Origin: an uncultured Ignavibacteria bacterium
GTDB lineage: Bacteria; Zixibacteria; MSB-5A5; UM-FILTER-46-8
Assembly: GCA_964563085.1 (NCBI GenBank)
Contig: CAZLVS010000009.1
Span: forward strand, 14,400 to 78,399
Direction of reading: 5' to 3'
DNA length: 64,000 nt
The notes beneath the pieces were generated by a model. It did not search any database and was not told the origin of the DNA. It saw nothing but the letters and a program-made list of their open reading frames with translations. The position numbers and the translations under genes are program-made. How positions within the stretch are numbered: position 1 is the stretch's first letter; each line of letters opens with the position of its first letter. Positions 6,480 through 58,690 of this stretch are shown piece by piece.

Positions 6480-6770
6480 ATGCGGCATGCTCAAGCTTGT
6501 TCGGGCGCGTTCTGATTGTGTGCATTTGTGCTGTCGGGCCGCCGCACCCGTCATTGCGAGCGAAGCGAAGCAATCCGGCTCCATGTTTGTGTGCGTCAAA
6601 CGTCCTCGTTTAACGCCTTCGGTCAGACAGGGACGTCTGACCGCACCGAAGAGTACTGTCTCCCGAAGTCATTGCGAGCGAAGCGAAGCAATCCCTTTAC
6701 ATTACAGCTGTGGTCGGCGGACGTCCCCGTCCGCCGACGGGGCGGCATACTCAAACTTGTCCGGGCATGC
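6480..6770. repeat. REP-like palindrome cassette
   Basis: Two GTCATTGCGAGCGAAGCGAAGCAATCC units, GGTCAGACAGGGACGTCTGACC and GTCGGCGGACGTCCCCGTCCGCCGAC hairpins; 6550-6647 is closely repeated at 51251-51347. Confidence 0.85.
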
Positions 6771-6847: not shown

Positions 6848-7348
6848 TTAATCCAGCTTGAAATCGCCGTGTTTTTCGATATGCGCCACCAGTCCGCCAT
6901 CGTTTAGTATCTTTATCATTGCATCCGGAAGCGGCGAAAAGGTGAGTCGATCTCCGGTTGTCAGATTGTTGACCACTCCCTCGGACAGATCGACTGTCAA
7001 CTGATCACCGGCGCTGATTCTATCAGTATCGCACACCAGGACGGGAAGGCCAACATTAATGGCGTTGCGGAAAAATATGCGCGCAAATGATTTCGCCATC
7101 ACCGCGCCGACCCCCGCCAACTTAATGATAGTCGGCGCATGTTCTCTGGATGAACCCAGCCCGAAGTTGTTCCCGCCAACCACGAAATCGCCGGGTTGAA
7201 CATTTTTAGCGAAATCCGGATCGGCATCTTCCAAAACATGTTTTGCCAATTCAGGCAGATTACTTCTGAGATGGAATAACCTTCCGGGAGCGATATGATC
7301 GGTGGAAATATCATCGCCGAATTTATGTGCTTTACCTGTTATTTGCAT
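6848..7348 (-). CDS. leuD: 3-isopropylmalate dehydratase/homoaconitase small subunit (copy 1)
   Basis: GDDISTDHIAPG, NFGLGSSREHA, AKSFARIFFRNAINVG. Confidence 0.92.
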   Translation of the reverse strand: MQITGKAHKFGDDISTDHIAPGRLFHLRSNLPELAKHVLEDADPDFAKNVQPGDFVVGGNNFGLGSSREHAPTIIKLAGVGAVMAKSFARIFFRNAINVGLPVLVCDTDRISAGDQLTVDLSEGVVNNLTTGDRLTFSPLPDAMIKILNDGGLVAHIEKHGDFKLD

Positions 7349-7370
7349 TATTTTTACTCCTGCCTTTTAT

Positions 7371-7545
7371 GGTTTCCGATGGCGTCGGGTTTCTCGCTCG
7401 TTGCACTCGCTCGGAACCCGACCTACGAATTTGTCGGGGATAAGCCCGCCGACCTGCGTTTGATTCAAGTGTCGGGTTTCTCGCTCGTTGCACTCGCTCG
7501 GAACCCGACCTACGGTTTCCAATGGCGTCGGTTTTCGTCGGTAAA
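7371..7545. repeat. Tandem GTAG-tagged REP elements between leuC and leuD
   Basis: Identical 44-bp units at 7384-7427 and 7471-7514 (GTCGGGTTTC...GGAACCCGACCTACG); related copies at 13868, 51193 and 51402. Confidence 0.85.
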
Positions 7546-7555
7546 TCCGTCGCCC

Positions 7556-9025
7556 CTACCGCTTTTTCTTAGCTGTTTTCTTCTTGGCTGCTTTTTTCTT
7601 GGCGGCCTTCTTCTTCGCCTTCTTAACCGCTTTCTTGGCGACTTTTTTCACAGCGCTTTTAGCTTTTTTCTTAGCCGCTTTTTGCTTGGTCGCCGCTGCT
7701 TTTTTGGCAGCTTTTGCTCTTGTGAGTTTCACCGGATCGGGGATCGTCCCCAACGGCTTAAGCGCCCGGCTGAACTCCCGGGGATCCGAAATATAGCCGG
7801 TCAAAGCGCTTGCCGCTACCGTAGCCGGAGATGCGAGATAGATATTCCCTTCGGGATTTCCCATACGACCCCTGAAATTACGGTTCTGAGTTGCGATTAC
7901 ATTTTCGCCATCGCCCAGGATTCCGCCATGAACTCCCACGCAGGGTCCGCATCCGGGAGGTAACATCAATGCGCCGAATTCCATCACGGTCTGCAGGTAA
8001 CCATGCTTCAATAACTCCGTTTCCACCTTTTTGGAACCGGGTACAGCTATGACTCGAACGCCAGGCGCAGGCTTTTTGCCCTTGACTATTCCCGCGAATA
8101 TCGCCCAGTCGGACAGGCGGGAGTTGGTGCAGGTGCCCAGAAAAACCTGATTAATCTTAACATTATCGGCAACCGCCTGTTCGATTTCCCGGGTATTATC
8201 CACTGTATGCGGGTAGGAAACGGTTGGTTTCAACTGGCGAACATCAATATCGATGATTTTCTCATAGTCGGCATCCGGATCGGGATAAATCTCCTGCCAC
8301 TTGCTGCCGCGTTTCCATTTCTTGAGGTAATCCCGGGTTATACTATCAGAAGCGATAAGCCCGGCTTTGGCGCCCGCTTCCACCGCCATATTCGACAGGG
8401 TGAACCGCCCTTCCATATCCATATTATCGATTGTCGGTCCGCCGAATTCCAGAGCCTTGTAGGTTGCGCCGTCCGCGCCGATCATACCGATCAAGTGCAG
8501 TATCAAATCCTTGGGATACACGCCTGTAGGGAATTTTCCGGTTACGTTTACTCGGTAAGTTTCAGGCACCCTGAGCCAGGTCTTCCCCAGCGCCATACCG
8601 ATAGCCACATCGGTGGAACCCATTCCGGTGGAAAACGCGCACAGCGCGCCTCCGGTGCAGGTATGCGAATCAGCGCCGATCAAGAGATCGCCCGGATTGA
8701 TATAATCCTCATTGATTACCGTGTGGCAGATACCGTTGCCGACATCTGAAAGATGCGCGCCGGTTTTGTCGGCGAACTGGCGTAATGTCATGTGGTCATT
8801 CGCCAGCTCCTTGCGCGATGCCGGAGCGGAATGGTCTAAAAACAGGACGGTTTTATCCGGATGAGCGACTTTCTCCAGGTTAAGTTTCTGAAGCTGTTTA
8901 ACCGCCAGCGGACCGGTGCCGTCCTGCACCAGTGCGGCGGTCACGTTAGCGATTACTATTTCGCCGGCGGATACTTCCTTACCGGCATTCATGCCAATTA
9001 TTATTTCAGCAAGGGTTTTACCCAT
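7556..9025 (-). CDS. leuC: 3-isopropylmalate dehydratase/homoaconitase large subunit (copy 1) with C-terminal histone H1-like tail
   Basis: LDH, GICH, GADSHT, LGTCTNSR and PGCGPC cluster ligands, TQNRNFRGRMG; last 53 aa are K/A-rich. Confidence 0.93.
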   Translation of the reverse strand: MGKTLAEIIIGMNAGKEVSAGEIVIANVTAALVQDGTGPLAVKQLQKLNLEKVAHPDKTVLFLDHSAPASRKELANDHMTLRQFADKTGAHLSDVGNGICHTVINEDYINPGDLLIGADSHTCTGGALCAFSTGMGSTDVAIGMALGKTWLRVPETYRVNVTGKFPTGVYPKDLILHLIGMIGADGATYKALEFGGPTIDNMDMEGRFTLSNMAVEAGAKAGLIASDSITRDYLKKWKRGSKWQEIYPDPDADYEKIIDIDVRQLKPTVSYPHTVDNTREIEQAVADNVKINQVFLGTCTNSRLSDWAIFAGIVKGKKPAPGVRVIAVPGSKKVETELLKHGYLQTVMEFGALMLPPGCGPCVGVHGGILGDGENVIATQNRNFRGRMGNPEGNIYLASPATVAASALTGYISDPREFSRALKPLGTIPDPVKLTRAKAAKKAAATKQKAAKKKAKSAVKKVAKKAVKKAKKKAAKKKAAKKKTAKKKR

Positions 9026-9654: not shown

Positions 9655-10062
9655 ATGTCTCTTTTAATCGCATTACGCACTATTGATGATGAAATGCGGC
9701 GAAAAATTAAGGAGATCAGCGGTCAGGATATCTCCAAATGCTTCCAATGCGGAACATGTTCGGCATCCTGCCCCATGGAGGAACATCTCCAGGCTCCGCC
9801 TCGCCGTATCATGACTTTGATTCAATTCGGTCAATCGGAAGCTCTCGATTTACTCAACACCCCCTGGGTGTGCGCCTCCTGCCACAACTGCATGGTTCGC
9901 TGCCCCCGCGGGATCGATATCACCAAGGTGATGGAAGCTATCCGGTTGTTAAGACTCCGCCAGAATGTTAACCAGATCGAACCGTCTAACCTGCAGCCTG
10001 AGGAGGTCGTTGAACTCCCTCAGATAGCAATGGTTTCCGGTTTCCGCAAAATGACATCGTGA
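9655..10062 (+). CDS. hdrC: Heterodisulfide reductase subunit C-like 2x[4Fe-4S] protein
   Basis: CFQCGTCSASCP and CASCHNCMVRCP. Confidence 0.85.
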   Translation: MSLLIALRTIDDEMRRKIKEISGQDISKCFQCGTCSASCPMEEHLQAPPRRIMTLIQFGQSEALDLLNTPWVCASCHNCMVRCPRGIDITKVMEAIRLLRLRQNVNQIEPSNLQPEEVVELPQIAMVSGFRKMTS

Positions 10063-10069
10063 GGTGAGT

Positions 10070-10960
10070 ATGAAGTTAGGTTATTATCCGGGATGTACAT
10101 TAAAAACAAAAGCGAAAAATCTCGAGGATTCGGCATTAGCCAGCCTGGAGGTTTTAGGGATCGAGGCGACCGAACTGGAACGATGGAATTGCTGCGGCGC
10201 GGTTTATTCGCTGGCTGATGACGATTTGATCCATATCGTAGCTCCGGTTCGCGACCTTATCCGGGCGCAGCAGCAGGGGTATGACACAGTTGTCACACTT
10301 TGTTCGATGTGTTACAACACATTAGCTCGCGCCAACGAGTTGATGAAAAACGATGAGGAAAAACGCAATACTTTGAACGACTTCATGGACGAGGAACCGG
10401 ATTATTTCGGAGATGTGAAAGTGGTTCATTTCCTCAATTTCCTTGAAGACGAAGTCGGATGGGATAAGGTTAAGGAAGCGGTCAAAGTTCCTCTTAACGG
10501 ACTGAAGGTCGCTCCGTATTACGGCTGCACTTTACTGCGTCCCAAGGAGGTCGGTATCGATCATCCCGACAATCCTGTCATGTTCCATAAGTTCCTGAAT
10601 GCATTGGGCGCCGAGGCGGTCGATTTCGACAGCGCTACCGAATGCTGCAGCGCGTATCAGTCGCTGGCTCATCCTGATATCGCATTGAAAGTTTCCTACG
10701 ATATCCTTCAGGATGCAGCCGGAAAAGGCGCGGAAGCGTTGGCTTTAGCCTGCCCTCTTTGCGATTATAACCTGGGACGCAAGCAGGGGAAGGTGCTGGA
10801 GATGTTCGAAAGCGCTAACGAAGTCCCGATTTATTATTTCACGCAATTGATGGCGGTGGCGTTCGGCGTACCGATCGACAAAAACCATTTTGAATTAAAC
10901 CGGGAGAGTTCGGTAGAACTGCTTAAATCAAAAAATCTGCTGAGCGAAGTTCCCGCATAA
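10070..10960 (+). CDS. hdrB: Heterodisulfide reductase subunit B-like CCG-domain protein
   Basis: YYPGC...WNCCG...CSMC and YYGC...ECCS...CPLC; GAGGTG RBS. Confidence 0.88.
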   Translation: MKLGYYPGCTLKTKAKNLEDSALASLEVLGIEATELERWNCCGAVYSLADDDLIHIVAPVRDLIRAQQQGYDTVVTLCSMCYNTLARANELMKNDEEKRNTLNDFMDEEPDYFGDVKVVHFLNFLEDEVGWDKVKEAVKVPLNGLKVAPYYGCTLLRPKEVGIDHPDNPVMFHKFLNALGAEAVDFDSATECCSAYQSLAHPDIALKVSYDILQDAAGKGAEALALACPLCDYNLGRKQGKVLEMFESANEVPIYYFTQLMAVAFGVPIDKNHFELNRESSVELLKSKNLLSEVPA

Positions 10961-11001
10961 AGTCTGAAATATGTAATATTTGATGATAAGAAGAGGTGAA
11001 T

Positions 11002-11832
11002 ATGAGTAAGAGACCATCAGTTGGAAGCACCGGTGAGGATCGGATTTTTAGAAGATCTATCGCAGGAGGAGGAGCTGAGGGAGGAGCCGCCGAAGTGCCG
11101 GTTGAGGAAATGGAAGCCAAGATGATTCCGATTTACATCATGGGCAAACGATACGAAGTTCCGGAAACATTAACCATAATGAAGGCTATGGAATACGCCG
11201 GATTCCAGTATATCCGCGGATGCGGATGCCGCGGCGGCGTTTGCGGCGCCTGCGCAACTGTTTATCGCAAACCCGGCGATTATAAAATCTACACCGGACT
11301 CGCCTGCCAGACTGTTGTCGAGCCGGAGATGTATTTAACGCAATTACCCTTCTACCCGGCGAACCGCGCCATTTATGAATTTAACGAGTTAACCGGAAGA
11401 CCGGAAGAAGTCCATGCTCTTTATCCGGAGCTGTTCCGATGTGTCGCCTGCAACGCCTGCACCAAGGTCTGCCCGATGGATGTGGAAGTCATGGATTATA
11501 TCGCCGCGGTGAAGCGGGGCGATATGAAGGCAGCGGCGGAGATTTCTTTCGACTGTATTCAATGCGGACTCTGCGCCAGCAGATGTATGGGCGAACTCCC
11601 GCAGTATCATATCGGACAGCTTGTCCGCAGGATCAACGGAGCGTTCCTAACTCCGCGCGCCGAACATCTGGCAACCATGGTCGCCAATATCGAAGCCGGG
11701 CGTTACAAAGAATGCCTGGAAAAAGTTAAGGGGCAGGATGCCGATACGCTGAGGAATATTTATCAGGAGCGCGAACTGGAACCTGCCGTTGCGGGTGAAG
11801 ACTGGACTCCGCAGAGTAAAGAGTGTTTATAA
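11002..11832 (+). CDS. Fumarate reductase/succinate dehydrogenase-type Fe-S subunit ([2Fe-2S] + 2x[4Fe-4S])
   Basis: CRGGVCGAC...LAC, CVACNACTKVCP, CIQCGLCASRC; GAGGTG RBS. Confidence 0.82.
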   Translation: MSKRPSVGSTGEDRIFRRSIAGGGAEGGAAEVPVEEMEAKMIPIYIMGKRYEVPETLTIMKAMEYAGFQYIRGCGCRGGVCGACATVYRKPGDYKIYTGLACQTVVEPEMYLTQLPFYPANRAIYEFNELTGRPEEVHALYPELFRCVACNACTKVCPMDVEVMDYIAAVKRGDMKAAAEISFDCIQCGLCASRCMGELPQYHIGQLVRRINGAFLTPRAEHLATMVANIEAGRYKECLEKVKGQDADTLRNIYQERELEPAVAGEDWTPQSKECL

Positions 11833-11867
11833 TCTTAAAGAAAAGAAATTAGTGTGAGGTTTTATAT

Positions 11868-13538
11868 ATGCCGTACCCAGAGGAACTAAAACAGCTTATT
11901 AAGATAGTGGAAAGCACCCGCGAAGAGAGGGTTGCCCGCAAGAGAAAAAACGAGGAAGTCCCTTTCCTGAGTCTCGATGAACGGAAAGAAATGCTTGCTA
12001 ACCATCCCGATGTGAAAGAAGAGGGAAGACGGGAACTGAAGGTCGGTCCCAGCAAAGGATATCGTATCGCCCACGAGGTGTGCGACCTGCTGGAGGCGAA
12101 AAGCCGCGTGGATCCCAATGCGGTTGACCTTTCCAATCCCGATATCGAAACCGATGTGCTGATAATCGGCGGGGGCGGAGCGGGAACTGCGGCGGCGATT
12201 ATGGCTCAGGAACAAGGCGCCAAGGTCACAATCGCCACTAAGTTGCGTCACGGCGACGCCAACACCATGATGGCCGAGGGCGGAATTCAGTCCGCTACCA
12301 AGGGGCATAAGGATTCGCCGTATTACCATTACCTCGACGTGATGGGCGGCGGTCATTTCGTTAACGATCCCGACCTGGTGGAAACACTGGTAACCAAAGC
12401 TCCCAACGCCATCAAGTGGCTGGAAAGCCTGGGGTGCAATTTCTCCAAGTTCCCGGATGGGACTCTTAAGACTATCCATGGAGGCGGGACTTCCCGTAAG
12501 CGTATGCATTATGCCGCCGATATCACCGGCGCGGAAATGATGCGCACCGTCCGCGATGAAGCTCGCAACCGCGTTAAAGATATCCAGGTTGTGGAATTCT
12601 CCCCGGCGGTGGAGCTTCTGCTCAATGAACATGGCAATTCCGCCGGCGCAGTATTGTACAATCTTGACACCGAGGAATACGTGGTAGCCAAGGCGAAATC
12701 TGTAGTGATGGCTACCGGCGGCTGCGGTCGTTTGCATATCCAGGGGTTTATGACCACCAACCATTACGGCGCAACCGCTGACGGTATCGTACTCGGTTAT
12801 CGCGCCGGAGTGAAGATCTGTTTCCTGCATACCGTGCAGTATCACCCCACCGGTATCGTATTCCCGGAGCAGGCGGAAGGAATTTTGATTACCGAGAAAT
12901 TCCGCGGTTCGGGCGCTAACTTAGTCAACGTTGATGGCCAGCAGTTCGTTAACGAACGCGAACCGCGCGATGTGGAAGCCGCCGCTATCATCAAGGAATG
13001 CGTCGGGCAGGGCAAGGGAGTTCCCACTCCCACCGGTAAGCTGGGTATCTGGCTTGATTCGCCGATGATCGATATGCTGGAAGGCGAAGGAACCGTGGAA
13101 CGTGAATTCCCCGGAAAATTCATCCTGTTCAAGCGCTACGGAATCGATATCTCCAAGGAACCGATGTTGATCTATCCCACGCTGCATTATCAGAACGGCG
13201 GACTGGAATTCAAGAACACCGGCGAGACAGCGGTACCGGGTCTGTTCGCAGCCGGAGAGGTCGGCGGAGGTATCCACGGCGAAAATCGTTTGATGGGTAA
13301 TTCGCTTCTGGATATTATGGTTTTCGGAAGGATCGCGGGCGAAACCGCCGCCAGGTACGCTAAGGAAAAAGCGAACGGCAGCAAGCTCTCGCTGGAGCAT
13401 GTTGAGAAATACAACAAAGAGATAGAAGAAGCGGGAGTCGGCGACGGACGCGTAGCCCCGATGATACTCCCCAACTACACCGATGAACGTATCCGCCAAA
13501 GACAACTCACCGCCCATTACGTGGGAACCATAAGGTAG
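11868..13538 (+). CDS. FrdA/SdhA/TfrA-family flavoprotein
   Basis: GGGGAG FAD motif, MAEGG, HGGGTS, QYHPTG, ITE..RG, EPRD, HYQNGG, HGENRLMGNSL. Confidence 0.88.
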   Translation: MPYPEELKQLIKIVESTREERVARKRKNEEVPFLSLDERKEMLANHPDVKEEGRRELKVGPSKGYRIAHEVCDLLEAKSRVDPNAVDLSNPDIETDVLIIGGGGAGTAAAIMAQEQGAKVTIATKLRHGDANTMMAEGGIQSATKGHKDSPYYHYLDVMGGGHFVNDPDLVETLVTKAPNAIKWLESLGCNFSKFPDGTLKTIHGGGTSRKRMHYAADITGAEMMRTVRDEARNRVKDIQVVEFSPAVELLLNEHGNSAGAVLYNLDTEEYVVAKAKSVVMATGGCGRLHIQGFMTTNHYGATADGIVLGYRAGVKICFLHTVQYHPTGIVFPEQAEGILITEKFRGSGANLVNVDGQQFVNEREPRDVEAAAIIKECVGQGKGVPTPTGKLGIWLDSPMIDMLEGEGTVEREFPGKFILFKRYGIDISKEPMLIYPTLHYQNGGLEFKNTGETAVPGLFAAGEVGGGIHGENRLMGNSLLDIMVFGRIAGETAARYAKEKANGSKLSLEHVEKYNKEIEEAGVGDGRVAPMILPNYTDERIRQRQLTAHYVGTIR

Positions 13539-26037: not shown

Positions 26038-27459
26038 CTATTTCAACAATGTCATCCGTTTGGTGAGTACATTGCCTCCGGAGGATAATCTATAGAAATA
26101 GATTCCCGAAGGATAATCAGCGGCATTCCAGGTAACAGTATAGTGCCCTGATTGCTGGTGGTTGTCCACCAATGCTGCCACCTTCTGTCCCATCAAGTTG
26201 AATACTTCAAGGTTTACATCACCAGGCTCGGATATGACATAGGCTATATTGGTGGAAGCGTTGAACGGATTCGGATAATTACTGTTTAAAGCGTATTCGC
26301 TTGGCGTTGCGTCATCTTCATAAAATCCGCCCTCAAGCAGCCATTCGGACGCGCCATCTGAATTGCGAGCGCCTGTTACGGTGAATTCGAAAAAGGCGGA
26401 GTCGCAGGCGTCAGGTTTTTCCCCCGAATATGAGATATACGTATAAGTACCGGTTGGCGCATATACAGGAACGCTTTGATTGAGATGGGCGGAAAGCGTC
26501 TGAGCCGGAGCCAGACTAATGTTGGAGAAATTCCACAATTCGTAGAAATCTCCGAGATAGATAATGCCGACCCAAACATCGGTAATCAAGGTATCATCAT
26601 TTGGATTGCCTATATGACCTGTTAAGCCGAAGGTTCCGCCTTGAGGAACCATGATCGGATCGTCATCCGGCACCATATCAACATCGCTGCACATAATCCC
26701 CTCTACTCCTGAATATCCATACCAGTTGCCGTTGTCATGATCGCCGGTAAACAGCAGGTTGTTGCAGTGCGAGAGAGTCCAACTCCAATCACCGTACGGA
26801 ACCGTGATCGTCTCCACATAGTTGCCATCGAAGTCGTAAACGGGAATGGTGGTGCTGTAAAAAGCTTCCTCGAAGAACAGGTGGATACCGTTGGTAGCGA
26901 TCGGGTAATCGTAATTATCGCCGTTAATTGTAAACTGCCCGACTTGTTCCCCGGTATCGATATCAAACATCCATACGGTTTCGGAGTAATGTTCGTAGAT
27001 TATGCCTTCCGAGAAACAAACTTCGCTATTGGTATCATTGAACATATCGGAAAACACGGTTGTGGTTGCTCCGGTCTCGGGATCGATAATGTATAAATCC
27101 GTACCGAACGGCTTAAGGTAAACATCGCCATTGTACATCCAGCAAGTACGCACCGAACTCACGCCGATCGTTACGGAGTTGACTAGGTTGCCGTTTATGT
27201 CGTAGGTTTCACAACCGGCGTTGTAGCCGATCCCGTAATACAGGTTGTTCTCCTCGTCAAAACAGATAGACTGGGCTTGACTGCTGAAGAAATGTTCAAA
27301 CTGAATCTCCAGACTTGGTGAGTATTGGGTAATCGCAGATTGCTGTTTCGGCGCATTACCGGAATTTACATCGCTGTCGTTCAAGGCGATATCCTGAAGC
27401 GCAAAGGAACTCGATGCAATAAAAGCGGTAATAAACAAAGCGAGAAGTAATTTTTTCAT
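26038..27459 (-). CDS. Secreted protein (probable beta-propeller) with Ig-like domain and T9SS-type CTD
   Basis: Signal peptide MKKLLLALF...; short beta repeats; PNPFNASTNI...SGIYFYRL...KRMTLLK. Confidence 0.75.
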   Translation of the reverse strand: MKKLLLALFITAFIASSSFALQDIALNDSDVNSGNAPKQQSAITQYSPSLEIQFEHFFSSQAQSICFDEENNLYYGIGYNAGCETYDINGNLVNSVTIGVSSVRTCWMYNGDVYLKPFGTDLYIIDPETGATTTVFSDMFNDTNSEVCFSEGIIYEHYSETVWMFDIDTGEQVGQFTINGDNYDYPIATNGIHLFFEEAFYSTTIPVYDFDGNYVETITVPYGDWSWTLSHCNNLLFTGDHDNGNWYGYSGVEGIMCSDVDMVPDDDPIMVPQGGTFGLTGHIGNPNDDTLITDVWVGIIYLGDFYELWNFSNISLAPAQTLSAHLNQSVPVYAPTGTYTYISYSGEKPDACDSAFFEFTVTGARNSDGASEWLLEGGFYEDDATPSEYALNSNYPNPFNASTNIAYVISEPGDVNLEVFNLMGQKVAALVDNHQQSGHYTVTWNAADYPSGIYFYRLSSGGNVLTKRMTLLK

Positions 27460-27852
27460 TTTGAACCTCATAAATAATTCGTTTGTAGATGGGTGAGATA
27501 GGGGCAACCGCTTGCTTATTGTCTAATACCTCCTTTCCTTGATAGGTTGATGAAACGGATTTATCGATTCACAACAAATAAAAAATCGATGTAATGAATG
27601 TTTATTCAATAATATAAGCGAGTCCGCTATTTGCATGATTAGCAGCCGATAACCGGGATGCTCGGCAGCAAGGACCGGTGACATCCATCTGGCGTAGAAA
27701 AACGGAGAAATACATTTTTATATAAACTAAATTACAAAATAAATGTTAAATCGTCAAGCAATAAATACCCGAGACTTAATAACTAACTTACTGCTTTTTT
27801 TACCAAATTTGTATTTGCTTTTAATTACTTACTCAACTTATTTTTATAGGTT

Positions 27853-30032: not shown

Positions 30033-33000
30033 ATGTTTAGAGAAATAAGCTCAGAATTTAATTATCCGGAAGCCGAACAAAAGGTAAACGAATATTGGGA
30101 TAAATATAATGTGTTTAATGAATCTCTCGATCGCCGTCGGGGCTGTCCCGAATTCGTATTTTACGAAGGACCGCCGACAGCTAACGGACTACCGGGGATC
30201 CATCATGCCATGGCTCGCATCGTAAAGGATACCATTTGCCGTTACAAGACCATGAAGGGCTTTCGCGTGGAAAGAAAGGCGGGCTGGGATACTCAGGGGC
30301 TTCCGGTTGAACTGGAAGTGGAAAAACGGCTTGGAATTTCCATCAAAGAAAACATTGAAGAGTTCGGGATTGAGAATTTCAACAAAGAATGCCGCGAGTC
30401 TGTTTTTAGATATAAGAAGGAATGGGATGAATTCACGCGCAGGATCGGATTCTGGCTCGATCTCGATGATGCTTACGTAACCTACACCAACGAATACATA
30501 GAATCGGTATGGTGGGCGTTAGCTCGTTTTCACCGCGAAGGTTATCTCTATCAGGGTCACAAGATACTCCCCTGGTGTCCCCGATGCGGCACGGCGCTTT
30601 CTTCGCATGAAGTAGCGCTGGGATATGAGACAGTCGAGGACCCATCGGTTTTTGTTCTCATGGAAATAATTGACAAGCCGGGTGTTTTTTTCCTGGTCTG
30701 GACAACGACTCCCTGGACATTGATATCAAACGTAGCCTTAGCGGTGCATCCCGACTACAAATATGTGGAGGTGGAATCGCGGGGAAATCATTTCATTCTG
30801 GAGCGCACAAGGGCTCACTCAATATTCGGCAGTGACATCAATATCGTAACGGAGTATACCGGCGCCGAGTTGATGGGACTTCATTACAAGCCGTTGTTCG
30901 AATTCATTAAATCCGACAGGAAATCTCATTATGTGGTTACCGCCGATTTCGTCACCACCGAAGAAGGTACCGGAATTGTGCATATTGCACCGGCATTCGG
31001 CGCCGATGACTACGAGCTTTCGGTAAAATACGACCTTCCGGTAGTACAGGCTGTCGACGAAAAGGGTAAGTTTATCCCCGAGGTGACGTCCTGGGCGGGC
31101 AGATTCGTTAAGGACGCCGATCCCGAAATAGTCGAAGACATCAGGAAGCGCAGTCTGCTGTTCAGATCGGAGACCTATTCTCATACCTATCCCTTCTGCT
31201 GGCGATGCGATACACCTTTGTTATATTATGCGAGGCGAAGCTGGTTTATACGCACCACCGGTTTTAAGGATAAGATGATTGAAAACAACAAACAGATAAA
31301 CTGGCAGCCTCCGGAGCTAAGGGATGGACGGTTCGGGGAATGGTTGGAGAATAATATAGATTGGGCTCTGTCCCGTGAACGTTTCTGGGGAACCCCTTTG
31401 CCGATCTGGGTATGTAAAAACTGCGGTAAGGAGCAATCAGTAGGGAGTATCGAGGAACTCAAGGAGCTGGGCGAAAACGTACCCGATGATATCGAGTTAC
31501 ATCGTCCTTATGTAGATCGTGTCGTTATCACCTGTCCCGAATGCGGCGGCGATATGCGCCGCACCCATGAAGTTATCGACGCCTGGTTCGATTCCGGTTC
31601 CATGCCGTTTGCCCAGTATCATTATCCATTCGAGAATAAGGAGAAGTTCGAAAGCAGGTTTCCGGCTGATTTTATCGCCGAGGGGATCGATCAAACCCGC
31701 GGTTGGTTTTATACATTACTGGCAATATCGACTTTCCTGTTTGGCAAATCATCCTATAAGAATATCGTGGTAAACGAGTTGATACTTGACAAGGACGGTC
31801 ATAAGATGAGCAAGTCCAGGGGAAATGTAGTTGATCCCCGTCGGGTTTTATCGGAGATGGGCGCCGATGCCACCCGTTGGTATATGGTGACCACCTCGCA
31901 GGTTTGGCTGCCGACCAAATTCGATATCAATGGCGTCGGAGAGGTTGCTAAGAAGTTTCTCTCAACTCTTAAAAACAGCTATTCATTTTTTGCGCTGTAT
32001 GCAAGTATCGATAAGTTTAATCCTTCCGATGTTAAAGAATCGGAATTGGAACCCACAGTTATCGATAAATGGCTGAAATCGAGACTGATGACGCTGGTTC
32101 GCCAGGTTGACAATCATTATGACAGGTTTGAGATAACCAGAGCTGCCAGATTGATTCAGAATTTCGTTATAGAGGATTTATCCAACTGGTATATCCGTCG
32201 TTGTCGACGAAGATATTGGGGATCGGAACCGACCAAAGATAAAACCACCGCTTATTATTATCTCTGGGACGCTCTGCTGACCACGTGCAAGTTAGCCGCT
32301 CCGGCAGCGCCATTTCTGACCGAGCAAATTTTCTTGAATCTGGTTGAGCCCCTCAAGGACAATAGCAAGATATCGATTCATTTGGAGGATTTCCCGGAAT
32401 CGGATAGTTCGAAGATTGATGCCAAGCTGGAATCGCTGATGGAGAAGGTCAAGGATATTGTCAGTTTAGGTCTTGCGGCGCGTAAGAAAAGCAAAATCAA
32501 AGTGCGGCAGCCCCTATCAAGAATTTTGGTGAAACTCTCCAATACGAAGGGAGACGAGGATTTTTCGCCTCTGCTCAGCCAGATAAAAGAGGAATTGAAT
32601 ATTAAGCAGGTGGAATTCACGGATAACTTCGATTCACTTTCTATATTCGAAGTTAAGCCGAATTTCAGGAGTTTAGGTCCCAAGTTCGGGAGGAAAGTTA
32701 ACCAGGTTTCCCGGGTACTGCAGGATTTATCACCGCAGCAAGCTGCACAATTCAAAGCCGAAGGGTCGGTAAACATCGATCTTGACGGGAAGGAGGTTAC
32801 CGTTAGCGCGGAGGATGTTGATTTTCTAACCAGATACTCCGGCGAATATGAAGTACTGCAGGAAGGTGAGACCGCAATCGCGCTTGAAACCGTCGTAACC
32901 GACGAATTGCGCGACGAAGGTTTTGCCCGGGAAATAGTGAACAAAGTGCAGAACATGCGTAAGACAGCGGATTATAATGTTACTGATAAAATAAGGATTC

Positions 33001-33173
33001 GTTTTTCCGGAAGTGATTTGATAACAGATGCGGTAGAGAAATATAAAAGTTATATTAGTGAAGAGACGCTCGCCGAAGAGATTATTTCAAGTGATGGAAA
33101 GGGTGATTTGGAGAAATCCTGGAATATAAACGGTGAGGATACTGTAATTTCTGTCGAAAAAATTAGTAGTTAG
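30033..33173 (+). CDS. ileS: Isoleucine--tRNA ligase, type II
   Basis: EGPPTANGLPGIHH, GWDTQGLPVE, KMSKS; no C-terminal Zn finger. Confidence 0.97.
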   Translation: MFREISSEFNYPEAEQKVNEYWDKYNVFNESLDRRRGCPEFVFYEGPPTANGLPGIHHAMARIVKDTICRYKTMKGFRVERKAGWDTQGLPVELEVEKRLGISIKENIEEFGIENFNKECRESVFRYKKEWDEFTRRIGFWLDLDDAYVTYTNEYIESVWWALARFHREGYLYQGHKILPWCPRCGTALSSHEVALGYETVEDPSVFVLMEIIDKPGVFFLVWTTTPWTLISNVALAVHPDYKYVEVESRGNHFILERTRAHSIFGSDINIVTEYTGAELMGLHYKPLFEFIKSDRKSHYVVTADFVTTEEGTGIVHIAPAFGADDYELSVKYDLPVVQAVDEKGKFIPEVTSWAGRFVKDADPEIVEDIRKRSLLFRSETYSHTYPFCWRCDTPLLYYARRSWFIRTTGFKDKMIENNKQINWQPPELRDGRFGEWLENNIDWALSRERFWGTPLPIWVCKNCGKEQSVGSIEELKELGENVPDDIELHRPYVDRVVITCPECGGDMRRTHEVIDAWFDSGSMPFAQYHYPFENKEKFESRFPADFIAEGIDQTRGWFYTLLAISTFLFGKSSYKNIVVNELILDKDGHKMSKSRGNVVDPRRVLSEMGADATRWYMVTTSQVWLPTKFDINGVGEVAKKFLSTLKNSYSFFALYASIDKFNPSDVKESELEPTVIDKWLKSRLMTLVRQVDNHYDRFEITRAARLIQNFVIEDLSNWYIRRCRRRYWGSEPTKDKTTAYYYLWDALLTTCKLAAPAAPFLTEQIFLNLVEPLKDNSKISIHLEDFPESDSSKIDAKLESLMEKVKDIVSLGLAARKKSKIKVRQPLSRILVKLSNTKGDEDFSPLLSQIKEELNIKQVEFTDNFDSLSIFEVKPNFRSLGPKFGRKVNQVSRVLQDLSPQQAAQFKAEGSVNIDLDGKEVTVSAEDVDFLTRYSGEYEVLQEGETAIALETVVTDELRDEGFAREIVNKVQNMRKTADYNVTDKIRIRFSGSDLITDAVEKYKSYISEETLAEEIISSDGKGDLEKSWNINGEDTVISVEKISS

Positions 33174-50156: not shown

Positions 50157-50654
50157 CTACTCTATCCCCAATCGTTTGCGCGTATATGGAATCAGTCCGC
50201 CGGCTTCGATTATACCCTGTGCCGATTCCGGCAGCGGCGGTATGGTAAACTCGCCTTTGGAAGTTGTTATAATGCCGTTAGCAAGATCAATCTTGATCTC
50301 GTCGCCGCTTTCCACAGCGTCTACCGCTTCTGCCGACGTAATTGGCGGTAATCCGAAATTCAGGCAGTTACGGAAGTAAAGCCGAGAAAATGATTTTGCG
50401 ATGATAGCTCCTACTCCGGCGTATTTCAGGCACGATGCCGCCTGCTCCCGGGATGAACCGCAGCCGAAATTCTTACCGCCGACCACCACATCGCCTTTGC
50501 TAACTTTACTTGAGAACTCAGGATCGAGATCCTCCATTGCATGTTTGGCGATCTCTTCGGGGTCGCTGACTGTGTAAGTATATTTTCCCGGGAAGATCAC
50601 ATCGGTGTTAATATCATCGCCGTATTTGAAAACTTTACCTTCTATTTTTGACAT
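50157..50654 (-). CDS. leuD: 3-isopropylmalate dehydratase/homoaconitase small subunit (copy 2)
   Basis: AAGGAG RBS; GDDINTDVIFPGKY, NFGCGSSREQA, AKSFSRLYFRN. Confidence 0.9.
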   Translation of the reverse strand: MSKIEGKVFKYGDDINTDVIFPGKYTYTVSDPEEIAKHAMEDLDPEFSSKVSKGDVVVGGKNFGCGSSREQAASCLKYAGVGAIIAKSFSRLYFRNCLNFGLPPITSAEAVDAVESGDEIKIDLANGIITTSKGEFTIPPLPESAQGIIEAGGLIPYTRKRLGIE

Positions 50655-50778
50655 TTTGGCTCCTTGGTCCGTTACATTTCGAAAGTTATCTTCACCAGTC
50701 ATTGCCCCGACTTCATTGGAAAATCGAAGCAATCCATATTCACATCGTAGATACTATGGTATAAAAGAGTAAAAAAGA

Positions 50779-50990: not shown

Positions 50991-51544
50991 GAGGGTTTAT
51001 TCCCCTGACACGGATTCTTCATCCCGCGGAATGCGGGATGAAGACGGCGCGTGTTATGTCATTGTGGTCGGTGAACGCCCCCGTCCGCCGACTGCATGGC
51101 ATGCTCAAATTTATTTGGGCATGTTTTGATTATATATGGTTACACATTGCTAGGGCTTCGCCTTGACCATGCCACCCTCCCGCATTTCATCCGTAGGTCG
51201 GGTTCCGAGCGAACGAAGTGATTGAGAAACCCGACACGCTTGCTGCACTGGTCATTGCGAGCGAAGCGAAGCAATCCGGCTCCATGTTTGTGCGTGACGG
51301 ACATCCCCGTTTGACGCCTTCGGTCAGACGGGGGCGTCTGCCCGCACCTGAATGTGCCTTCCCCCGATTTCATCAGGGTCACCCGCATATAATATTCGGA
51401 GCAGGTCGGGTTCCGAGCGAACGAAGTGATGGAGAAGCCCGGCACCAGTAAGCGCTCACGAGATTGTTTCAAAATCCAAATTTAAGGCATTGCTTGAGTA
51501 CAGGAGATTGCCGCGCCCTCGGAAAACCTCGGCCTCGCAATGAC
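50991..51544. repeat. Large mosaic REP cassette between leuC and leuD (copy 2)
   Basis: Contains modules shared with 6480-6770, 7371-7545, 13608-14054, 18018-18314 and 25790-26020. Confidence 0.87.
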
Positions 51545-51546
51545 CC

Positions 51547-52800
51547 TTATAAATACTCCCTCGGATCGGTGATCTCGCCTTTGAGAGCCGATGCCGCAAC
51601 CGATGCCGGTGATGCCAGATATATCTCAGCTTCCCGGCTGCCCATTCTGCCTTTGAAATTCCGATTAGCGGTTGAAATGACCACCTCATCCGGCGCGGGC
51701 ACACCCTGATGAGCGCCCAGACATGGTCCGCATCCGGAGTTGGTTATTATTCCCCCGGCTTCCATTATAGTCTGAGCGTACCCTGCTTTCATAGCGTCCA
51801 TATAGACTTTCCTGGATGCGGGTATGCAGATCATGCGGCAATCGGGATGTATTTTCCGTCCTTTCAAGATGGACGCAACCACCTGCCAATCCGACAGCCG
51901 CGAACCGTTACAAGTTCCCAAAAACGCCTGCTGAACTTTGGCGCCTACAACTTCACTTATCGGTTTGACGTTGTCAACCGTATGGGGACATGCAACTTGG
52001 GGTTCAAGCTCGGTTAGATCTATCTCGATATCTTTAGCATACTCGGCGTCGCTGTCAGGAAATACCGGCTGATAAGTCTGATTGCCCCGCAATGCCAGAT
52101 ACGAGAACGTTTTCTCATCAGGTTTCATATAACCGTTTTTAGCGCCCATCTCCACCGCAAGATTGGTAAACACCACACGATAATCCATAGAGAGTGAATC
52201 AAGATAAGGTCCTGAAAACTCTATCGAACGATAGATCCCCCCGTCAGCGCCAATCCTGCCTACTACGTGAAGCGCAACGTCTTTGGCAAATATTCCCTTG
52301 GGCGGCATTCCCAAAAGCAGCGCCCGCATCGATTCCGGGACACGGAACCATATCTTGCCCGTAGCCATTATCACAGCCATCTCCGAACGGCCGATTCCGG
52401 TGGCAAAGGCTCCGAAAGCCCCGTGATGGGTGGTATGCGAATCGCTGCCAACCACAACCATACCGGGCAGAACCATTCCCTCCTCAACCATCACCTGGTG
52501 GCAGATTCCGGCATTAACATCATAAAACTTTGTTATTCCCTGGTTTTTAGCAAATATCCTCACCGTCTTATGATTTTGCGCAAACTTCTCGTTGGCGGCA
52601 GGGGTGCAGTGATCCAGTATTATGACATGCAGATTCGGATCATAAACCTTGTCGACACCAATATCGTAAAAAGTTTTCGATATCGCGGCGGTGTTATCGT
52701 GCGACATGGCGAGGTCAGGCGTAATTTCTACGATCTCACCCGGCGCCACATCCTTGCCGACCCTCTTTGATAATATTTTCTCAGCAAAAGTAAGTCCCAT
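51547..52800 (-). CDS. leuC: 3-isopropylmalate dehydratase/homoaconitase large subunit (copy 2)
   Basis: SHDN, LDH, GICHQ, GSDSHT, LGTCNGSR, SGCGPC, TANRNFKGRMG; ends DPREYL without a tail. Confidence 0.92.
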   Translation of the reverse strand: MGLTFAEKILSKRVGKDVAPGEIVEITPDLAMSHDNTAAISKTFYDIGVDKVYDPNLHVIILDHCTPAANEKFAQNHKTVRIFAKNQGITKFYDVNAGICHQVMVEEGMVLPGMVVVGSDSHTTHHGAFGAFATGIGRSEMAVIMATGKIWFRVPESMRALLLGMPPKGIFAKDVALHVVGRIGADGGIYRSIEFSGPYLDSLSMDYRVVFTNLAVEMGAKNGYMKPDEKTFSYLALRGNQTYQPVFPDSDAEYAKDIEIDLTELEPQVACPHTVDNVKPISEVVGAKVQQAFLGTCNGSRLSDWQVVASILKGRKIHPDCRMICIPASRKVYMDAMKAGYAQTIMEAGGIITNSGCGPCLGAHQGVPAPDEVVISTANRNFKGRMGSREAEIYLASPASVAASALKGEITDPREYL

Positions 52801-58620: not shown

Positions 58621-58690
58621 GTGTCGTTGGGCGCCCGACGGCACGAGGTTGCGGATTGCTTCGCTTTACTGGCAATGACAGGCAGCTGTC
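58621..58690. repeat. Degenerate REP cassette
   Basis: GGATTGCTTCGCTTTACTGGCAATGAC is a reverse-complement variant of the GTCATTGCGAG...GCAATCC unit. Confidence 0.7.

What the first reader, a model, noticed from the sequence alone, without database searches (positions are those of the whole stretch)
7556..7717. Histone H1-like Lys/Ala tail fused to an intact LeuC aconitase-family enzyme
The last 53 residues (AKAAKKAAATKQKAAKKKAKSAVKKVAKKAVKKAKKKAAKKKAAKKKTAKKKR) contain 27 Lys, 18 Ala and 1 Arg, in frame after the normal DPRE end. The paralogue at 51547 stops at DPREYL, giving an internal control. Such tails bind or condense DNA in HupB, Hc2 and mycobacterial Ku/TopA, and aconitases are known nucleic-acid-binding moonlighters (IRP1, yeast Aco1). 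Inference: a metabolic Fe-S enzyme tethered to the nucleoid or RNA.
Basis: partly seen in the sequence, partly recalled or inferred. Interest (0 to 1): 0.75.

Follow-up and report, generated by a model that had tools for sequence, protein, structure and literature searches.

The report
Lysine-rich tail on a TCA-type aconitase
A Zixibacteria-like bacterium carries a real, evolutionarily conserved, strongly positively charged disordered tail on an iron-sulfur enzyme that is probably its citric-acid-cycle aconitase rather than LeuC, and related genomes put a similar tail on a second cycle enzyme, which suggests these enzymes are tethered to a negatively charged cell component.

Summary
ORF 7556-9025(-) encodes an intact aconitase-family large subunit, then a 19-aa linker, then a 53-aa tract with 27 Lys, 18 Ala and 1 Arg (net +30). 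The paralogue at 51547 ends at DPREYL.

The tail is not an artefact. The identical protein was assembled in four independent runs, and basic tails occur in more than 100 orthologue clusters, in nested clades: none, then short, then the window type, then a helical module plus a Lys-rich end.

The "LeuC" label is probably wrong. Scores fall below the LeuC cut-offs. The partner small subunit has an invariant Arg-containing substrate loop. In relatives the gene pair sits between citrate synthase and NADP-isocitrate dehydrogenase, so it is probably a two-subunit TCA aconitase.

One finding is new. Succinyl-CoA synthetase alpha (SucD), encoded in the same gene cluster in related Zixibacteria, also ends in a 30-75-aa Lys-rich tail. 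No other long Lys-rich tract was found on any other reading frame in about 240 kb of the window and related loci.

The most likely function is a non-specific tether to a polyanion: nucleic acid first, with polyphosphate or acidic membrane as rivals. This is inferred, not shown. No report of such tails on TCA enzymes was found. I class it as a new variant of the known histone-H1-like bacterial tails.

The parts
7556..9025 (-). Whole CDS (489 aa plus stop): large, Fe-S-bearing subunit of a two-subunit aconitase-family hydro-lyase with a C-terminal extension
7775..9025 (-). Catalytic core, residues 1-417, ending ...YISDPRE. It contains the D119-S120-H121 motif and cluster ligands C299, C359, C362
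   Evidence: PF00330 matches residues 26-410 and NF001614 matches 3-416. It aligns over residues 1-417 with PDB 4nqy/4kp1. AF2 pTM is 0.72.
7718..7774 (-). Linker, residues 418-436, FSRALKPLGTIPDPVKLTR. The sequence is conserved in the closest orthologues (P0002-P0004: S/T-R-x-L-K/R-P-LGT-I/V-PD)
   Evidence: pLDDT is below 50 at residues 421-431.
7559..7717 (-). Polycationic Lys/Ala tract, residues 437-489: 27 K, 18 A, 1 R, no acidic residue
   Evidence: Modelled as a single low-confidence helix. The coding DNA holds a 15-nt tandem repeat of 3.7 copies at 7561-7615.
6848..7348 (-). Cognate small (swivel-domain) subunit, 166 aa, with substrate-recognition loop PGRLFHLRSNLP and the GSSRE motif
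   Evidence: It is 75% identical to the small subunit in the TCA cluster of L006.
7349..7555 (.). 207-bp spacer between the large- and small-subunit genes. It holds two exact copies of a 44-nt palindromic element (7384-7427, 7471-7514)
   Evidence: The spacer is only 12-85 bp in relatives.
9655..13538 (+). Divergently transcribed neighbours: Fer4 protein, CCG (HdrB/SdhE-like) protein, SdhB-like Fe-S protein and a fumarate reductase/succinate dehydrogenase-type flavoprotein. These give TCA-type context in the window itself
51547..52800 (-). Tail-less paralogue (417 aa, ends DPREYL), the internal control. It is 47% identical to the tailed protein
50157..50732 (-). Small subunit of the paralogue. 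Its loop FPGKYTYTVSD has no Arg and is LeuD-like

Best explanation
The gene encodes the catalytic large subunit of a two-subunit aconitase-family enzyme. It is most likely the citrate/isocitrate aconitase of the TCA cycle of a Zixibacteria-like bacterium, not LeuC. A lineage-specific, intrinsically disordered polycationic extension (19-aa linker plus 53-aa Lys/Ala tract, net +30) has been added to its C-terminus. Selection maintains the tail for composition and charge rather than for sequence. It grew partly by slippage of short repeats. In the best-supported reading it acts as a non-specific electrostatic tether, holding the otherwise slightly acidic enzyme (core -4, small subunit -5) on a cellular polyanion. 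Nucleic acid (nucleoid DNA or RNA) is the most probable target. In related genomes SucD of the same gene cluster carries an analogous tail, so the tails may bring the two TCA enzymes to the same place.

Shown here: the tail exists, the core is intact, the tail is conserved across orthologues in nested clades, it is restricted to these two enzymes in the sequence examined, and the gene sits in TCA context.

Inferred: aconitase activity, disorder in vivo, polyanion binding, and the identity of the polyanion.
For: Reality and conservation.
- The identical protein appears in four independent assemblies.
- 114 of the 120 best-scoring orthologue clusters have extensions of more than 6 residues. Mean net charge is +10 (short tails), +35 (window type) and +30 (long tails).
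- In the scan of GTDB (Genome Taxonomy Database) species genomes, which is not biased by the tail, the four closest tailed loci are L008, L009, L011 and L012. More distant members of the family (Melainabacteria, Methanosarcinales, Elusimicrobia and others) end at DPREVL or similar.
- Tail types form nested clades on a tree of the core domain.

Specificity.
- In the window plus loci L005-L012, L015, L017, L020, L088 and L089 (about 240 kb), long Lys-rich tracts occur only on this large subunit and on SucD.
- SucD ends in such a tail in 117 of 120 close clusters, many of them named Zixibacteria. Its core ends at about residue 288 when compared with solved structures.
- Both tailed genes lie in one cluster in the complete genome CP070742.1 and in L089.
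- An outgroup, L016, has both proteins tail-less.

Aconitase assignment.
- Scores are below the LeuC and HacA equivalog cut-offs.
- The small-subunit loop PGR[LY]FHLR[STN][ND]L, with the Arg kept throughout, is conserved in all 44 loci examined, across bacteria and archaea. Its Leu-Arg aligns with that of HacB.
- Neighbours in relatives pass equivalog cut-offs for citrate synthase, NADP-IDH and MDH.
- Across 80 loci the neighbours include 37 small subunits, 20 Iso_dh genes and 9 citrate synthases.

Precedent for the mechanism.
- KPAA/PAKKA-type Lys/Ala tails bind DNA and polyphosphate granules (AlgP, PMC9239181), RNA (PhaF, PMC12818456) and DNA (Ku, PMC3553676).
- Aconitase associates with nucleoids in yeast (PMC6124551) and with the RNA degradosome in Caulobacter (PMC3045602).
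Against: - No binding, localisation or activity data exist.
- The window itself has no citrate synthase or IDH gene. The TCA assignment therefore rests on orthologues that are 64-65% identical, plus the adjacent fumarate-reductase-like genes.
- Both protein searches that gave the high tail frequencies used queries containing a tail, which favours tailed hits.
- The tail has no proline and no KPAA/PAKKA motif, and it matches no Pfam family. The resemblance to H1-like tails is therefore compositional only.
- AF2 gives low confidence for the tail, which fits disorder but proves nothing.
- A tail of this kind would bind any polyanion in vitro, so the physiological partner is open.
- Only about 240 kb was scanned, not a whole proteome.
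Confidence: 0.5

Rival explanations
1. The tail binds polyphosphate rather than nucleic acid. It places the enzyme on polyphosphate granules, or makes it a polyphosphate-dependent substrate of Lon-type proteolysis during starvation.
For: The H1-like Lys/Ala tail of AlgP localises to polyphosphate granules and needs the polyphosphate kinases to do so (PMC9239181). A review in the held library (PMC11894788) appeared in the search and treats polyphosphate as part of bacterial chromatin. The window tail is acid-free with a net charge of +30. From my own knowledge, not checked here: polyphosphate-Lon degrades Lys-rich ribosomal proteins in E. coli.
Against: No polyphosphate kinase or granule gene was seen near the locus or its relatives. 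Nothing distinguishes polyphosphate from DNA or RNA on sequence grounds.
Confidence: 0.15
2. The tail anchors the enzyme to the anionic inner face of the cytoplasmic membrane or to a lipid or granule surface, close to the membrane-associated succinate dehydrogenase/fumarate reductase.
For: In the long-tail relatives a strongly amphipathic helical module (hydrophobic moment z = 5.9 against shuffles) precedes the Lys-rich end. LiaF-like membrane proteins are conserved between the small-subunit gene and icd. In the window the gene is next to SDH/FRD-like genes.
Against: The window's own tail lacks the helical module and is only weakly amphipathic (z = 2.0). It has no hydrophobic face or aromatic anchor residues. 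Short-tail relatives have only about 20 basic residues.
Confidence: 0.1
3. The tail acts in cis with no macromolecular partner. It could be an electrostatic funnel that concentrates polyanionic substrates (citrate, isocitrate; CoA esters for SucD), a solubility or 'entropic bristle' element, or a sink for non-enzymatic lysine acylation.
For: Both tailed enzymes handle multiply charged anions, and SucD handles succinyl-CoA. The tail emerges at the large-subunit C-terminus, which is where the linker to the swivel domain lies in single-chain relatives. The match to the PRK07229 model runs on to residue 472 of the query.
Against: Citrate synthase, IDH, MDH, SucC and the oxoglutarate oxidoreductase subunits in the same clusters handle similar anions and have no tail. 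Tail length varies from 15 to 270 residues, which is hard to reconcile with a geometric role at the active site.
Confidence: 0.1
4. The tail is a selectively neutral low-complexity expansion produced by replication slippage and has no function.
For: The coding DNA contains a 15-nt tandem repeat and other short direct repeats. Tail sequences do not align between clades and their lengths vary widely.
Against: Basic, acid-poor character is kept across more than 100 clusters whose cores have diverged to about 60% identity. The tail is in nested clades, always in frame and always at the same position. It is confined to two enzymes among all reading frames scanned in about 240 kb. The linker motif is conserved in close relatives.
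Confidence: 0.08
5. The tail is an artefact: a misassembly, a frameshift, or a missed stop codon.
For: None found. The only oddity is that contigs tend to break just downstream of the gene.
Against: Four independent assemblies give the identical 489-aa product. The breaks fall in the 44-nt repeat, 71 bp past the stop codon and outside the gene. Orthologues from NCBI, JGI, ENA and Logan all read through into basic tails.
Confidence: 0.01

Closest known systems
AlgP and PhaF of Pseudomonas (histone-H1-like KPAA-repeat C-terminal domains)
   Same: A long, disordered, Lys/Ala-rich, acid-poor C-terminal tract attached to a folded domain. Experiments show these tracts bind DNA and polyphosphate granules (AlgP, PMC9239181) and RNA (PhaF, PMC12818456).
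   Different: Those tails are proline-containing KPAA repeats on proteins whose main job is binding or regulation. Here the tract has no proline, matches no family profile, and sits on a central-metabolism Fe-S enzyme.
Lys-rich tails of actinobacterial DNA proteins (Ku PAKKA repeats, PMC3553676; HupB and topoisomerase I from my own knowledge) and chlamydial Hc1/Hc2 (own knowledge)
   Same: Low-complexity Lys/Ala tails that add non-specific polyanion affinity. They are lineage-specific and variable in length.
   Different: The host proteins already act on DNA. No metabolic enzyme is involved.
Valine-tRNA ligase family NF011492 (PRK14900), whose model has a Lys/Ala-rich C-terminal region
   Same: A housekeeping enzyme with an appended Lys/Ala tail. 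The window tail (residues 435-487) matches model positions 967-1019 of 1044 at E = 8e-6.
   Different: A tRNA ligase has an obvious nucleic-acid substrate and an aconitase does not. The match is compositional. The window's own class I tRNA ligase (30033-33173) has no such tail.
Moonlighting aconitases: IRP1, yeast Aco1 on mitochondrial nucleoids (PMC6124551), and aconitase in the Caulobacter RNA degradosome (PMC3045602)
   Same: A TCA-cycle aconitase physically associated with nucleic acid or a nucleic-acid machine.
   Different: Those are single-chain AcnA/mitochondrial-type enzymes that use the enzyme body or a partner's docking site. Here the enzyme has two subunits and a dedicated added tail. 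Matches to IRP1 structures are weak (52 bits).
Methanocaldococcus jannaschii isopropylmalate/citramalate isomerase LeuCD (4kp1/4nqy, 3vba) and homoaconitase HacAB (4kp2, 2pkp)
   Same: These are the closest solved structures: 367 and 352 bits for the large subunit, 162 and 130 bits for the small subunit. The two-subunit architecture is the same.
   Different: They have no tail. The substrate loops differ: YLVYT and YLRTT against the invariant PGRLFHLRSN here. The gene context here is TCA, not leucine or coenzyme B biosynthesis.

Membership tests
Aconitase superfamily, archaeal-type large subunit (PF00330; NF001614 aconitase/3-isopropylmalate dehydratase large subunit family) | Profile match above the curated cut-off | tested here: met
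   PF00330 scores 332.7 against 28.7. NF001614 scores 545.8 against 385.
Aconitase superfamily, archaeal-type large subunit (PF00330; NF001614 aconitase/3-isopropylmalate dehydratase large subunit family) | Three cysteine ligands of the [4Fe-4S] cluster and the catalytic Asp-Ser-His motif | tested here: met
   C299, C359, C362 and D119-S120-H121 are invariant columns in alignment A1.
Aconitase superfamily, archaeal-type large subunit (PF00330; NF001614 aconitase/3-isopropylmalate dehydratase large subunit family) | Separate swivel-domain small subunit with the GSSRE motif, encoded next to the large subunit | tested here: met
   6848-7348(-) matches Aconitase_C and LEUD_arch at 190 bits against 109.
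LeuC, 3-isopropylmalate dehydratase large subunit | Score above the equivalog cut-off (TIGR02083 LEU2; TIGR00170 leuC) | tested here: not met
   460.4 against 610.65, and 233.7 against 560.25. The paralogue also stays below these cut-offs.
LeuC, 3-isopropylmalate dehydratase large subunit | Partner small subunit with a hydrophobic LeuD-type substrate-recognition loop (YLVYT in MJ1277) | tested here: not met
   The loop is PGRLFHLRSN, and its Leu-Arg aligns with that of HacB YLRTT. Its core PGR[LY]FHLR is conserved in all 44 orthologous loci examined. PMC7308503 establishes that this loop sets substrate specificity.
LeuC, 3-isopropylmalate dehydratase large subunit | Leucine-operon context (leuA, leuB) | tested here: not met
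   The neighbours are fumarate-reductase-like genes in the window. In relatives they are citrate synthase, NADP-IDH, MDH, SucCD and oxoglutarate oxidoreductase.
TCA-cycle aconitase (by function) | Gene neighbourhood with citrate synthase and isocitrate dehydrogenase | tested here: met
   Met in orthologues, not in the window itself. L006 has CS, large, small, IDH in that order, with equivalog-level scores. See also L005, L088, L089 and 80 GTDB loci. The window has none of these genes.
TCA-cycle aconitase (by function) | Membership of the characterised AcnA or AcnB families | tested here: not met
   AcnA 95.5 against 945. AcnB 121.5 against 1287.
TCA-cycle aconitase (by function) | Citrate/cis-aconitate/isocitrate interconversion | not testable with these tools
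   This needs an enzyme assay with both subunits under anoxic conditions.
Histone-H1-like Lys/Ala(/Pro) bacterial tails (AlgP, PhaF, HupB, Ku, Hc1/Hc2) | Low-complexity tract dominated by Lys and Ala, acid-poor, with a high net positive charge | tested here: met
   45 of 53 residues are K or A, none is D or E, and the net charge is +30.
Histone-H1-like Lys/Ala(/Pro) bacterial tails (AlgP, PhaF, HupB, Ku, Hc1/Hc2) | KPAA/PAKKA-type proline-containing repeat motif | tested here: not met
   There is no proline in the 53-residue tract. There is only a 5-residue (15-nt) Lys/Ala periodicity.
Histone-H1-like Lys/Ala(/Pro) bacterial tails (AlgP, PhaF, HupB, Ku, Hc1/Hc2) | Detectable sequence homology to a described tail or histone family | tested here: not met
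   Pfam finds no family for the window tail even at E <= 1. The only hit is a compositional match to the tail of a ValRS model.
Histone-H1-like Lys/Ala(/Pro) bacterial tails (AlgP, PhaF, HupB, Ku, Hc1/Hc2) | Binding of DNA, RNA or polyphosphate | not testable with these tools
   This needs EMSA or co-sedimentation and localisation experiments.
IRP1/Aco1-type moonlighting aconitase | Single-chain four-domain AcnA or mitochondrial architecture | tested here: not met
   The enzyme has two subunits. IRP1 structures match at only 46-52 bits over a part of the core.

The most novel reading that the evidence does not exclude
In Zixibacteria two soluble TCA-cycle enzymes encoded in one gene cluster, the aconitase large subunit and succinyl-CoA synthetase alpha, have each acquired and kept a polycationic disordered tail. 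The tails bring the two enzymes together on a shared cellular polyanion (nucleoid, RNA or polyphosphate). This would give either an electrostatically scaffolded piece of the TCA cycle or a bacterial counterpart of nucleoid-bound mitochondrial aconitase that couples central metabolism to the chromosome or to RNA.
Probability: 0.3. Interest if true: 0.8.

Novelty: new variant of a known kind. Interest (0 to 1): 0.66.

Why it matters
Polycationic histone-H1-like tails are known in bacteria on proteins that already handle DNA or RNA. Here one sits on a core metabolic Fe-S enzyme. It is conserved and elaborated across a candidate phylum, and it is paired with an analogous tail on a second enzyme of the same pathway.

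If the tails tether these enzymes to the nucleoid, to RNA or to polyphosphate, this would be a natural, genetically simple example of localising central metabolism by charge alone. It would also be an independent parallel to aconitase on mitochondrial nucleoids and in the Caulobacter degradosome.

There is a practical consequence too. A widespread group of genes annotated as LeuC/LeuD (in Zixibacteria, WOR-3, Melainabacteria, Methanosarcinales and others) is probably a two-subunit TCA aconitase, which affects metabolic reconstructions from metagenomes.

Tried and rejected
- **Pfam on five tails at E <= 1.** Nothing meaningful was found, and no phasin, histone or Hc family.
- **Helical module of the long-tail relatives, word-indexed search.** It returned only two fragments of the same aconitase tails.
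- **Helical module, exhaustive HMMER search of 1.84 billion representatives.** All 8 hits below 1e-10 were C-terminal ends or fragments of these large subunits. Most weaker hits matched only the 30 core residues of the query. I therefore rejected the idea that a stand-alone PhaF-like or phasin-like protein was fused on.
- **Assembly or frameshift artefact.** Rejected.
- **A proteome-wide habit of Lys-rich tails.** Rejected for the roughly 240 kb examined. It was not tested on a whole genome.
- **The listing of cluster members for taxonomy.** It gave almost no names. Taxonomy came from GTDB record titles and source names instead.
- **Fold search.** Not run, because both AF2 models have tails at pLDDT 25-62 and any matches would be meaningless.
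- **Promoter and terminator scans around the gene.** They gave counts no higher than shuffled sequence.
- **Literature.** Searches for Zixibacteria plus aconitase, and for Lys-rich tails on aconitase or metabolic enzymes, found no prior description. A search for yeast Lsc1 as a nucleoid protein did not confirm my recollection, so I do not rely on it.
- **Type IX secretion signal.** I considered and dropped this reading. Such domains in this window are Por_Secre_tail folds on secreted proteases, not Lys-rich tracts.
Full report
**1. The observation**

The window holds a single 489-aa ORF at 7556..9025 on the minus strand. Translating 7556-7774(-) gives the linker FSRALKPLGTIPDPVKLTR, then the tract AKAAKKAAATKQKAAKKKAKSAVKKVAKKAVKKAKKKAAKKKAAKKKTAKKKR, then a stop.

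The counts of 27 Lys, 18 Ala and 1 Arg are exact, and the tract has no acidic residue. Lys makes up 4.8% of 16 long ORFs of the window, so 27 or more Lys in 53 residues has a binomial probability of about 5e-22. No other reading frame anywhere in the 64 kb contains a comparable Lys-rich stretch.

The enzyme part is intact:
- Pfam Aconitase scores 333 bits and NF001614 scores 546 bits.
- The Asp-Ser-His motif and the three cluster cysteines are invariant in an alignment with 19 relatives.
- The core aligns end to end with the solved M. jannaschii large subunits.
- A cognate small subunit lies 207 bp downstream at 6848..7348(-).

**2. The tail is not an artefact**

The identical 489-aa product is encoded on contigs assembled independently from four sequencing runs. 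Three of those contigs stop 71 bp after the stop codon. That position falls inside the second of two exact 44-nt palindromic repeats in the spacer (7384-7427 and 7471-7514). The assembly breaks are therefore explained by a repeat outside the gene.

**3. Conservation**

All of the 120 best-scoring protein clusters are aconitase-family large subunits, and 114 carry an extension of more than 6 residues after the conserved DPR motif. There are three architectures:
- **Short tails** of about 15-29 basic residues (for example DPREFLAKRKTKTKAKTVKKKKKR). Mean net charge is +10.
- **The window type**, a linker plus 70-110 residues rich in K, A, R, V and T (P0002-P0008). Mean net charge is +35. In the closest relatives the linker motif LKPLGT(I/V)PD is conserved.
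- **Long tails** of about 130-270 residues. One to five copies of a roughly 37-residue helical unit (GPKAKEAS.KVE..AKKA..EYGPKA.KAA.D) are followed by a Lys-rich end. Mean net charge is +30.

This list is biased, because the query contained the tail. The scan of GTDB species genomes used only core motifs, so it is an independent check:
- Of the five closest loci (65-72% identity), four end in basic extensions. They are L008 (Zixibacteria, about 90 residues), L009 (22 residues), L011 (Zixibacteria, 21 residues) and L012 (12 residues, weakly basic). L010 has none.
- Two more distant loci have short basic tails: L015 (WOR-3) and L020.
- The remaining roughly 70 loci end at DPREVL or similar. They come from Melainabacteria, Methanosarcinales, Elusimicrobia, Aminicenantia, Chloroflexi and others.

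On a neighbour-joining tree of the core domain the states appear as nested groups in the order none, short, window type, helical plus Lys-rich. This is a rough tree without support values.

The tail sequences do not align between groups, while charge and acid depletion are kept. The tail DNA in the window contains a 15-nt tandem repeat of 3.7 copies. This pattern fits growth by slippage under selection for composition.

**4. What the enzyme is**

The protein reaches only subfamily-level models. It is below the equivalog cut-offs for LeuC (460 against 611; 234 against 560) and for methanogen homoaconitase (428 against 550).

In this family the small subunit's flexible loop sets the substrate (PMC7308503, citing Jeyakanthan 2010). 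The loops compare as follows:

| Small subunit | Loop |
|---|---|
| Partner of the tailed protein | PGRLFHLRSNLP (its Leu-Arg aligns with that of HacB) |
| Homoaconitase HacB | YLRTT |
| LeuD (MJ1277) | YLVYT |
| Partner of the paralogue | YTYTVSD |

The core of the loop, PGR[LY]FHLR, is conserved in all 44 orthologous loci examined, from Zixibacteria to Methanosarcinales; the few variants lie elsewhere in the loop. This points to one conserved substrate that carries an extra carboxylate.

Gene context agrees:
- L006 has the order 2-oxoacid oxidoreductase, ndk, citrate synthase, large subunit, small subunit, isocitrate dehydrogenase.
- L005, L088 (complete genome CP070742.1) and L089 have sucC, sucD, ferredoxin, oxidoreductase subunits, ndk, larA, mdh, large, small, liaF-like, icd.
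- The neighbours pass NCBIfam equivalog cut-offs: citrate (Si)-synthase 701 against 620, NADP-IDH 679 and 666 against 567, MDH 414 against 352.
- Across the 80 GTDB loci, tblastn finds a small subunit in 37, an Iso_dh-family gene in 20 (six at 60% identity or more to NADP-IDH), and citrate synthase in 9.

The window itself has none of these genes. Its tailed gene is divergent from a fumarate reductase/succinate dehydrogenase-like cluster at 9655-13538. Its small subunit is 75% identical to the one in the TCA cluster of L006, against 48% for the paralogue's small subunit.

I conclude, at about 0.7-0.75 probability, that this is a two-subunit TCA aconitase and that the paralogue pair is the better LeuCD candidate. 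The activity itself is inferred.

**5. A second tailed enzyme**

While scanning relatives for other Lys-rich tracts I found that SucD in L005 ends ...VLLKDLMSGKKKKAPKTAPKKTAAKKTAPKKKATSKSSISKKGGSSKAKPKIKKRSR.

- A search with this protein returned 120 clusters, many named Zixibacteria. They are 320-363 residues long where about 290 is normal, and 117 have at least 12 Lys/Arg in the last 40 residues. The query contained a tail, so the same bias caveat applies.
- Compared with solved SucD structures, the core of P0280 ends at about residue 288 and the remaining roughly 70 residues are tail.
- In L088 and L089 both tailed genes lie in one co-directional cluster, and no other reading frame in those loci has a long Lys-rich tract.
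- At least 14 tailed SucD clusters share their longest-contig length with long-tail aconitase clusters.
- In the Aminicenantia outgroup L016 both proteins are tail-less.
- Citrate synthase, IDH, MDH, SucC, the oxidoreductase subunits and NDK in the same loci have no tail.

I could not establish whether SucD is also tailed in the window's own sub-clade.

**6. Structure**

AF2 models the window core with pTM 0.72. The linker scores below pLDDT 50, and the Lys/Ala tract is modelled as one long helix at pLDDT 45-62.

In the long-tail relative P0033 the module forms two long helices at pLDDT about 40, and the Lys-rich end is coil at about 27. The module is strongly amphipathic (z = 5.9 against shuffles), whereas the window tail is only weakly so (z = 2.0).

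An exhaustive profile search found the module nowhere except on these large subunits. It is therefore an innovation of this lineage and not a borrowed domain.

**7. Mechanism**

An acid-free tract with a net charge of +30 on a flexible linker will bind polyanions. The core (-4) and the small subunit (-5) are slightly acidic.

Experimentally studied Lys/Ala tails in bacteria bind DNA and polyphosphate granules (AlgP, PMC9239181), specific mRNAs (PhaF, PMC12818456) and DNA (Ku, PMC3553676). Aconitase is also found on yeast mitochondrial nucleoids (PMC6124551) and in the Caulobacter RNA degradosome (PMC3045602).

My leading explanation is a non-specific electrostatic tether to nucleic acid, possibly shared with SucD. 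The rivals are polyphosphate binding, membrane or granule anchoring (favoured somewhat by the amphipathic module and the LiaF-like membrane genes in relatives), a role in cis, and neutral expansion. None of these can be separated by sequence analysis.

**8. Comparison with known systems, and novelty**

The tail resembles H1-like bacterial tails in composition only. It has no proline motif and no profile match. The nearest enzyme-plus-tail precedent seen here is a valine-tRNA ligase model whose C-terminal region matches the tail at E = 8e-6. That enzyme has a nucleic-acid substrate.

The IRP1/Aco1 analogy does not carry over mechanistically. No paper in the held library describes such tails on TCA enzymes or in Zixibacteria.

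I class this as a new variant of a known kind. It is real, conserved and unusual in where it sits, and its function is open.

Noticed in passing
L005:1796-2419; L088:10001-11077; L089:3198-4289: Succinyl-CoA synthetase alpha (SucD) of related Zixibacteria ends in a 30-75-residue Lys-rich tail after a normal core of about 288 residues. 117 of 120 close clusters show it. It lies in the same TCA gene cluster as the tailed aconitase large subunit.
   Followed up: yes
window 7384-7427 and 7471-7514: Two exact copies of a 44-nt palindromic element (GTCGGGTT...AACCCGAC stem) fill the spacer between the large- and small-subunit genes. The spacer is unusually long at 207 bp. Three independent assemblies break inside the second copy. 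Relatives have spacers of only 12-85 bp here.
   Followed up: partly
window 6550-6576, 6668-6694, 51251-51277, 58653-58679: A 27-nt intergenic repeat, GTCATTGCGAGCGAAGCGAAGCAATCC, is present as three exact copies plus one with 3 mismatches. None is expected by chance. One copy lies in the 814-bp gap between the paralogue's large- and small-subunit genes, so both aconitase-family gene pairs are split by repeat-bearing spacers.
   Followed up: partly
window 53748-55316 (-): A third aconitase-family ORF of 522 aa is very divergent: 121 bits to NF001614 against a cut-off of 385. The Asp-Ser-His motif is replaced (GSDPAVISAG), the first cluster cysteine position reads IGYYSGG, and there is an N-terminal extension of about 120 residues. 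It looks like a non-catalytic relative. It sits next to a HIT-family gene.
   Followed up: partly
relatives P0009-P0110 (for example P0110 residues about 430-620; L088:16668-18374): Long-tail orthologues carry one to five tandem copies of a roughly 37-residue amphipathic helical unit (GPKAKEAS.KVE..AKKA..EYGPKA.KAA.D) between the enzyme and the Lys-rich end. An exhaustive search of 1.84 billion representatives found the unit only on these proteins.
   Followed up: yes
L005:10153-10934; L088:18904-19694; L089:12294-12488: Small LiaI/LiaF-like membrane proteins are conserved between the aconitase small-subunit gene and icd in Zixibacteria TCA clusters. One also lies a few kb away in the P0079 locus. 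Their role is unknown, and they might be relevant to a membrane-anchoring reading.
   Followed up: no
loci L005-L090 and window 6848-7348: The small-subunit loop PGR[LY]FHLR[STN][ND]L is conserved, Arg included, in all 44 loci examined, from bacteria of many phyla to Methanosarcinales archaea. The gene pair is often followed by an Iso_dh gene or preceded by citrate synthase. Genes widely annotated as LeuC/LeuD therefore look like a distinct two-subunit aconitase group.
   Followed up: partly
L005:1402-2419: In this assembly sucD is split into two overlapping ORFs (1402-1833 and 1796-2419) by an apparent frameshift. Orthologues are single genes of 320-363 aa. This is probably a sequencing or assembly error in that record.
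   Followed up: no
window 26038-27507, 40978-44241, 56606-58549: Several large secreted proteins, including an S8 subtilase and an M1 peptidase, carry type IX secretion C-terminal sorting domains. This fits an organism of the Fibrobacterota-Chlorobiota-Bacteroidota group such as Zixibacteria.
   Followed up: no
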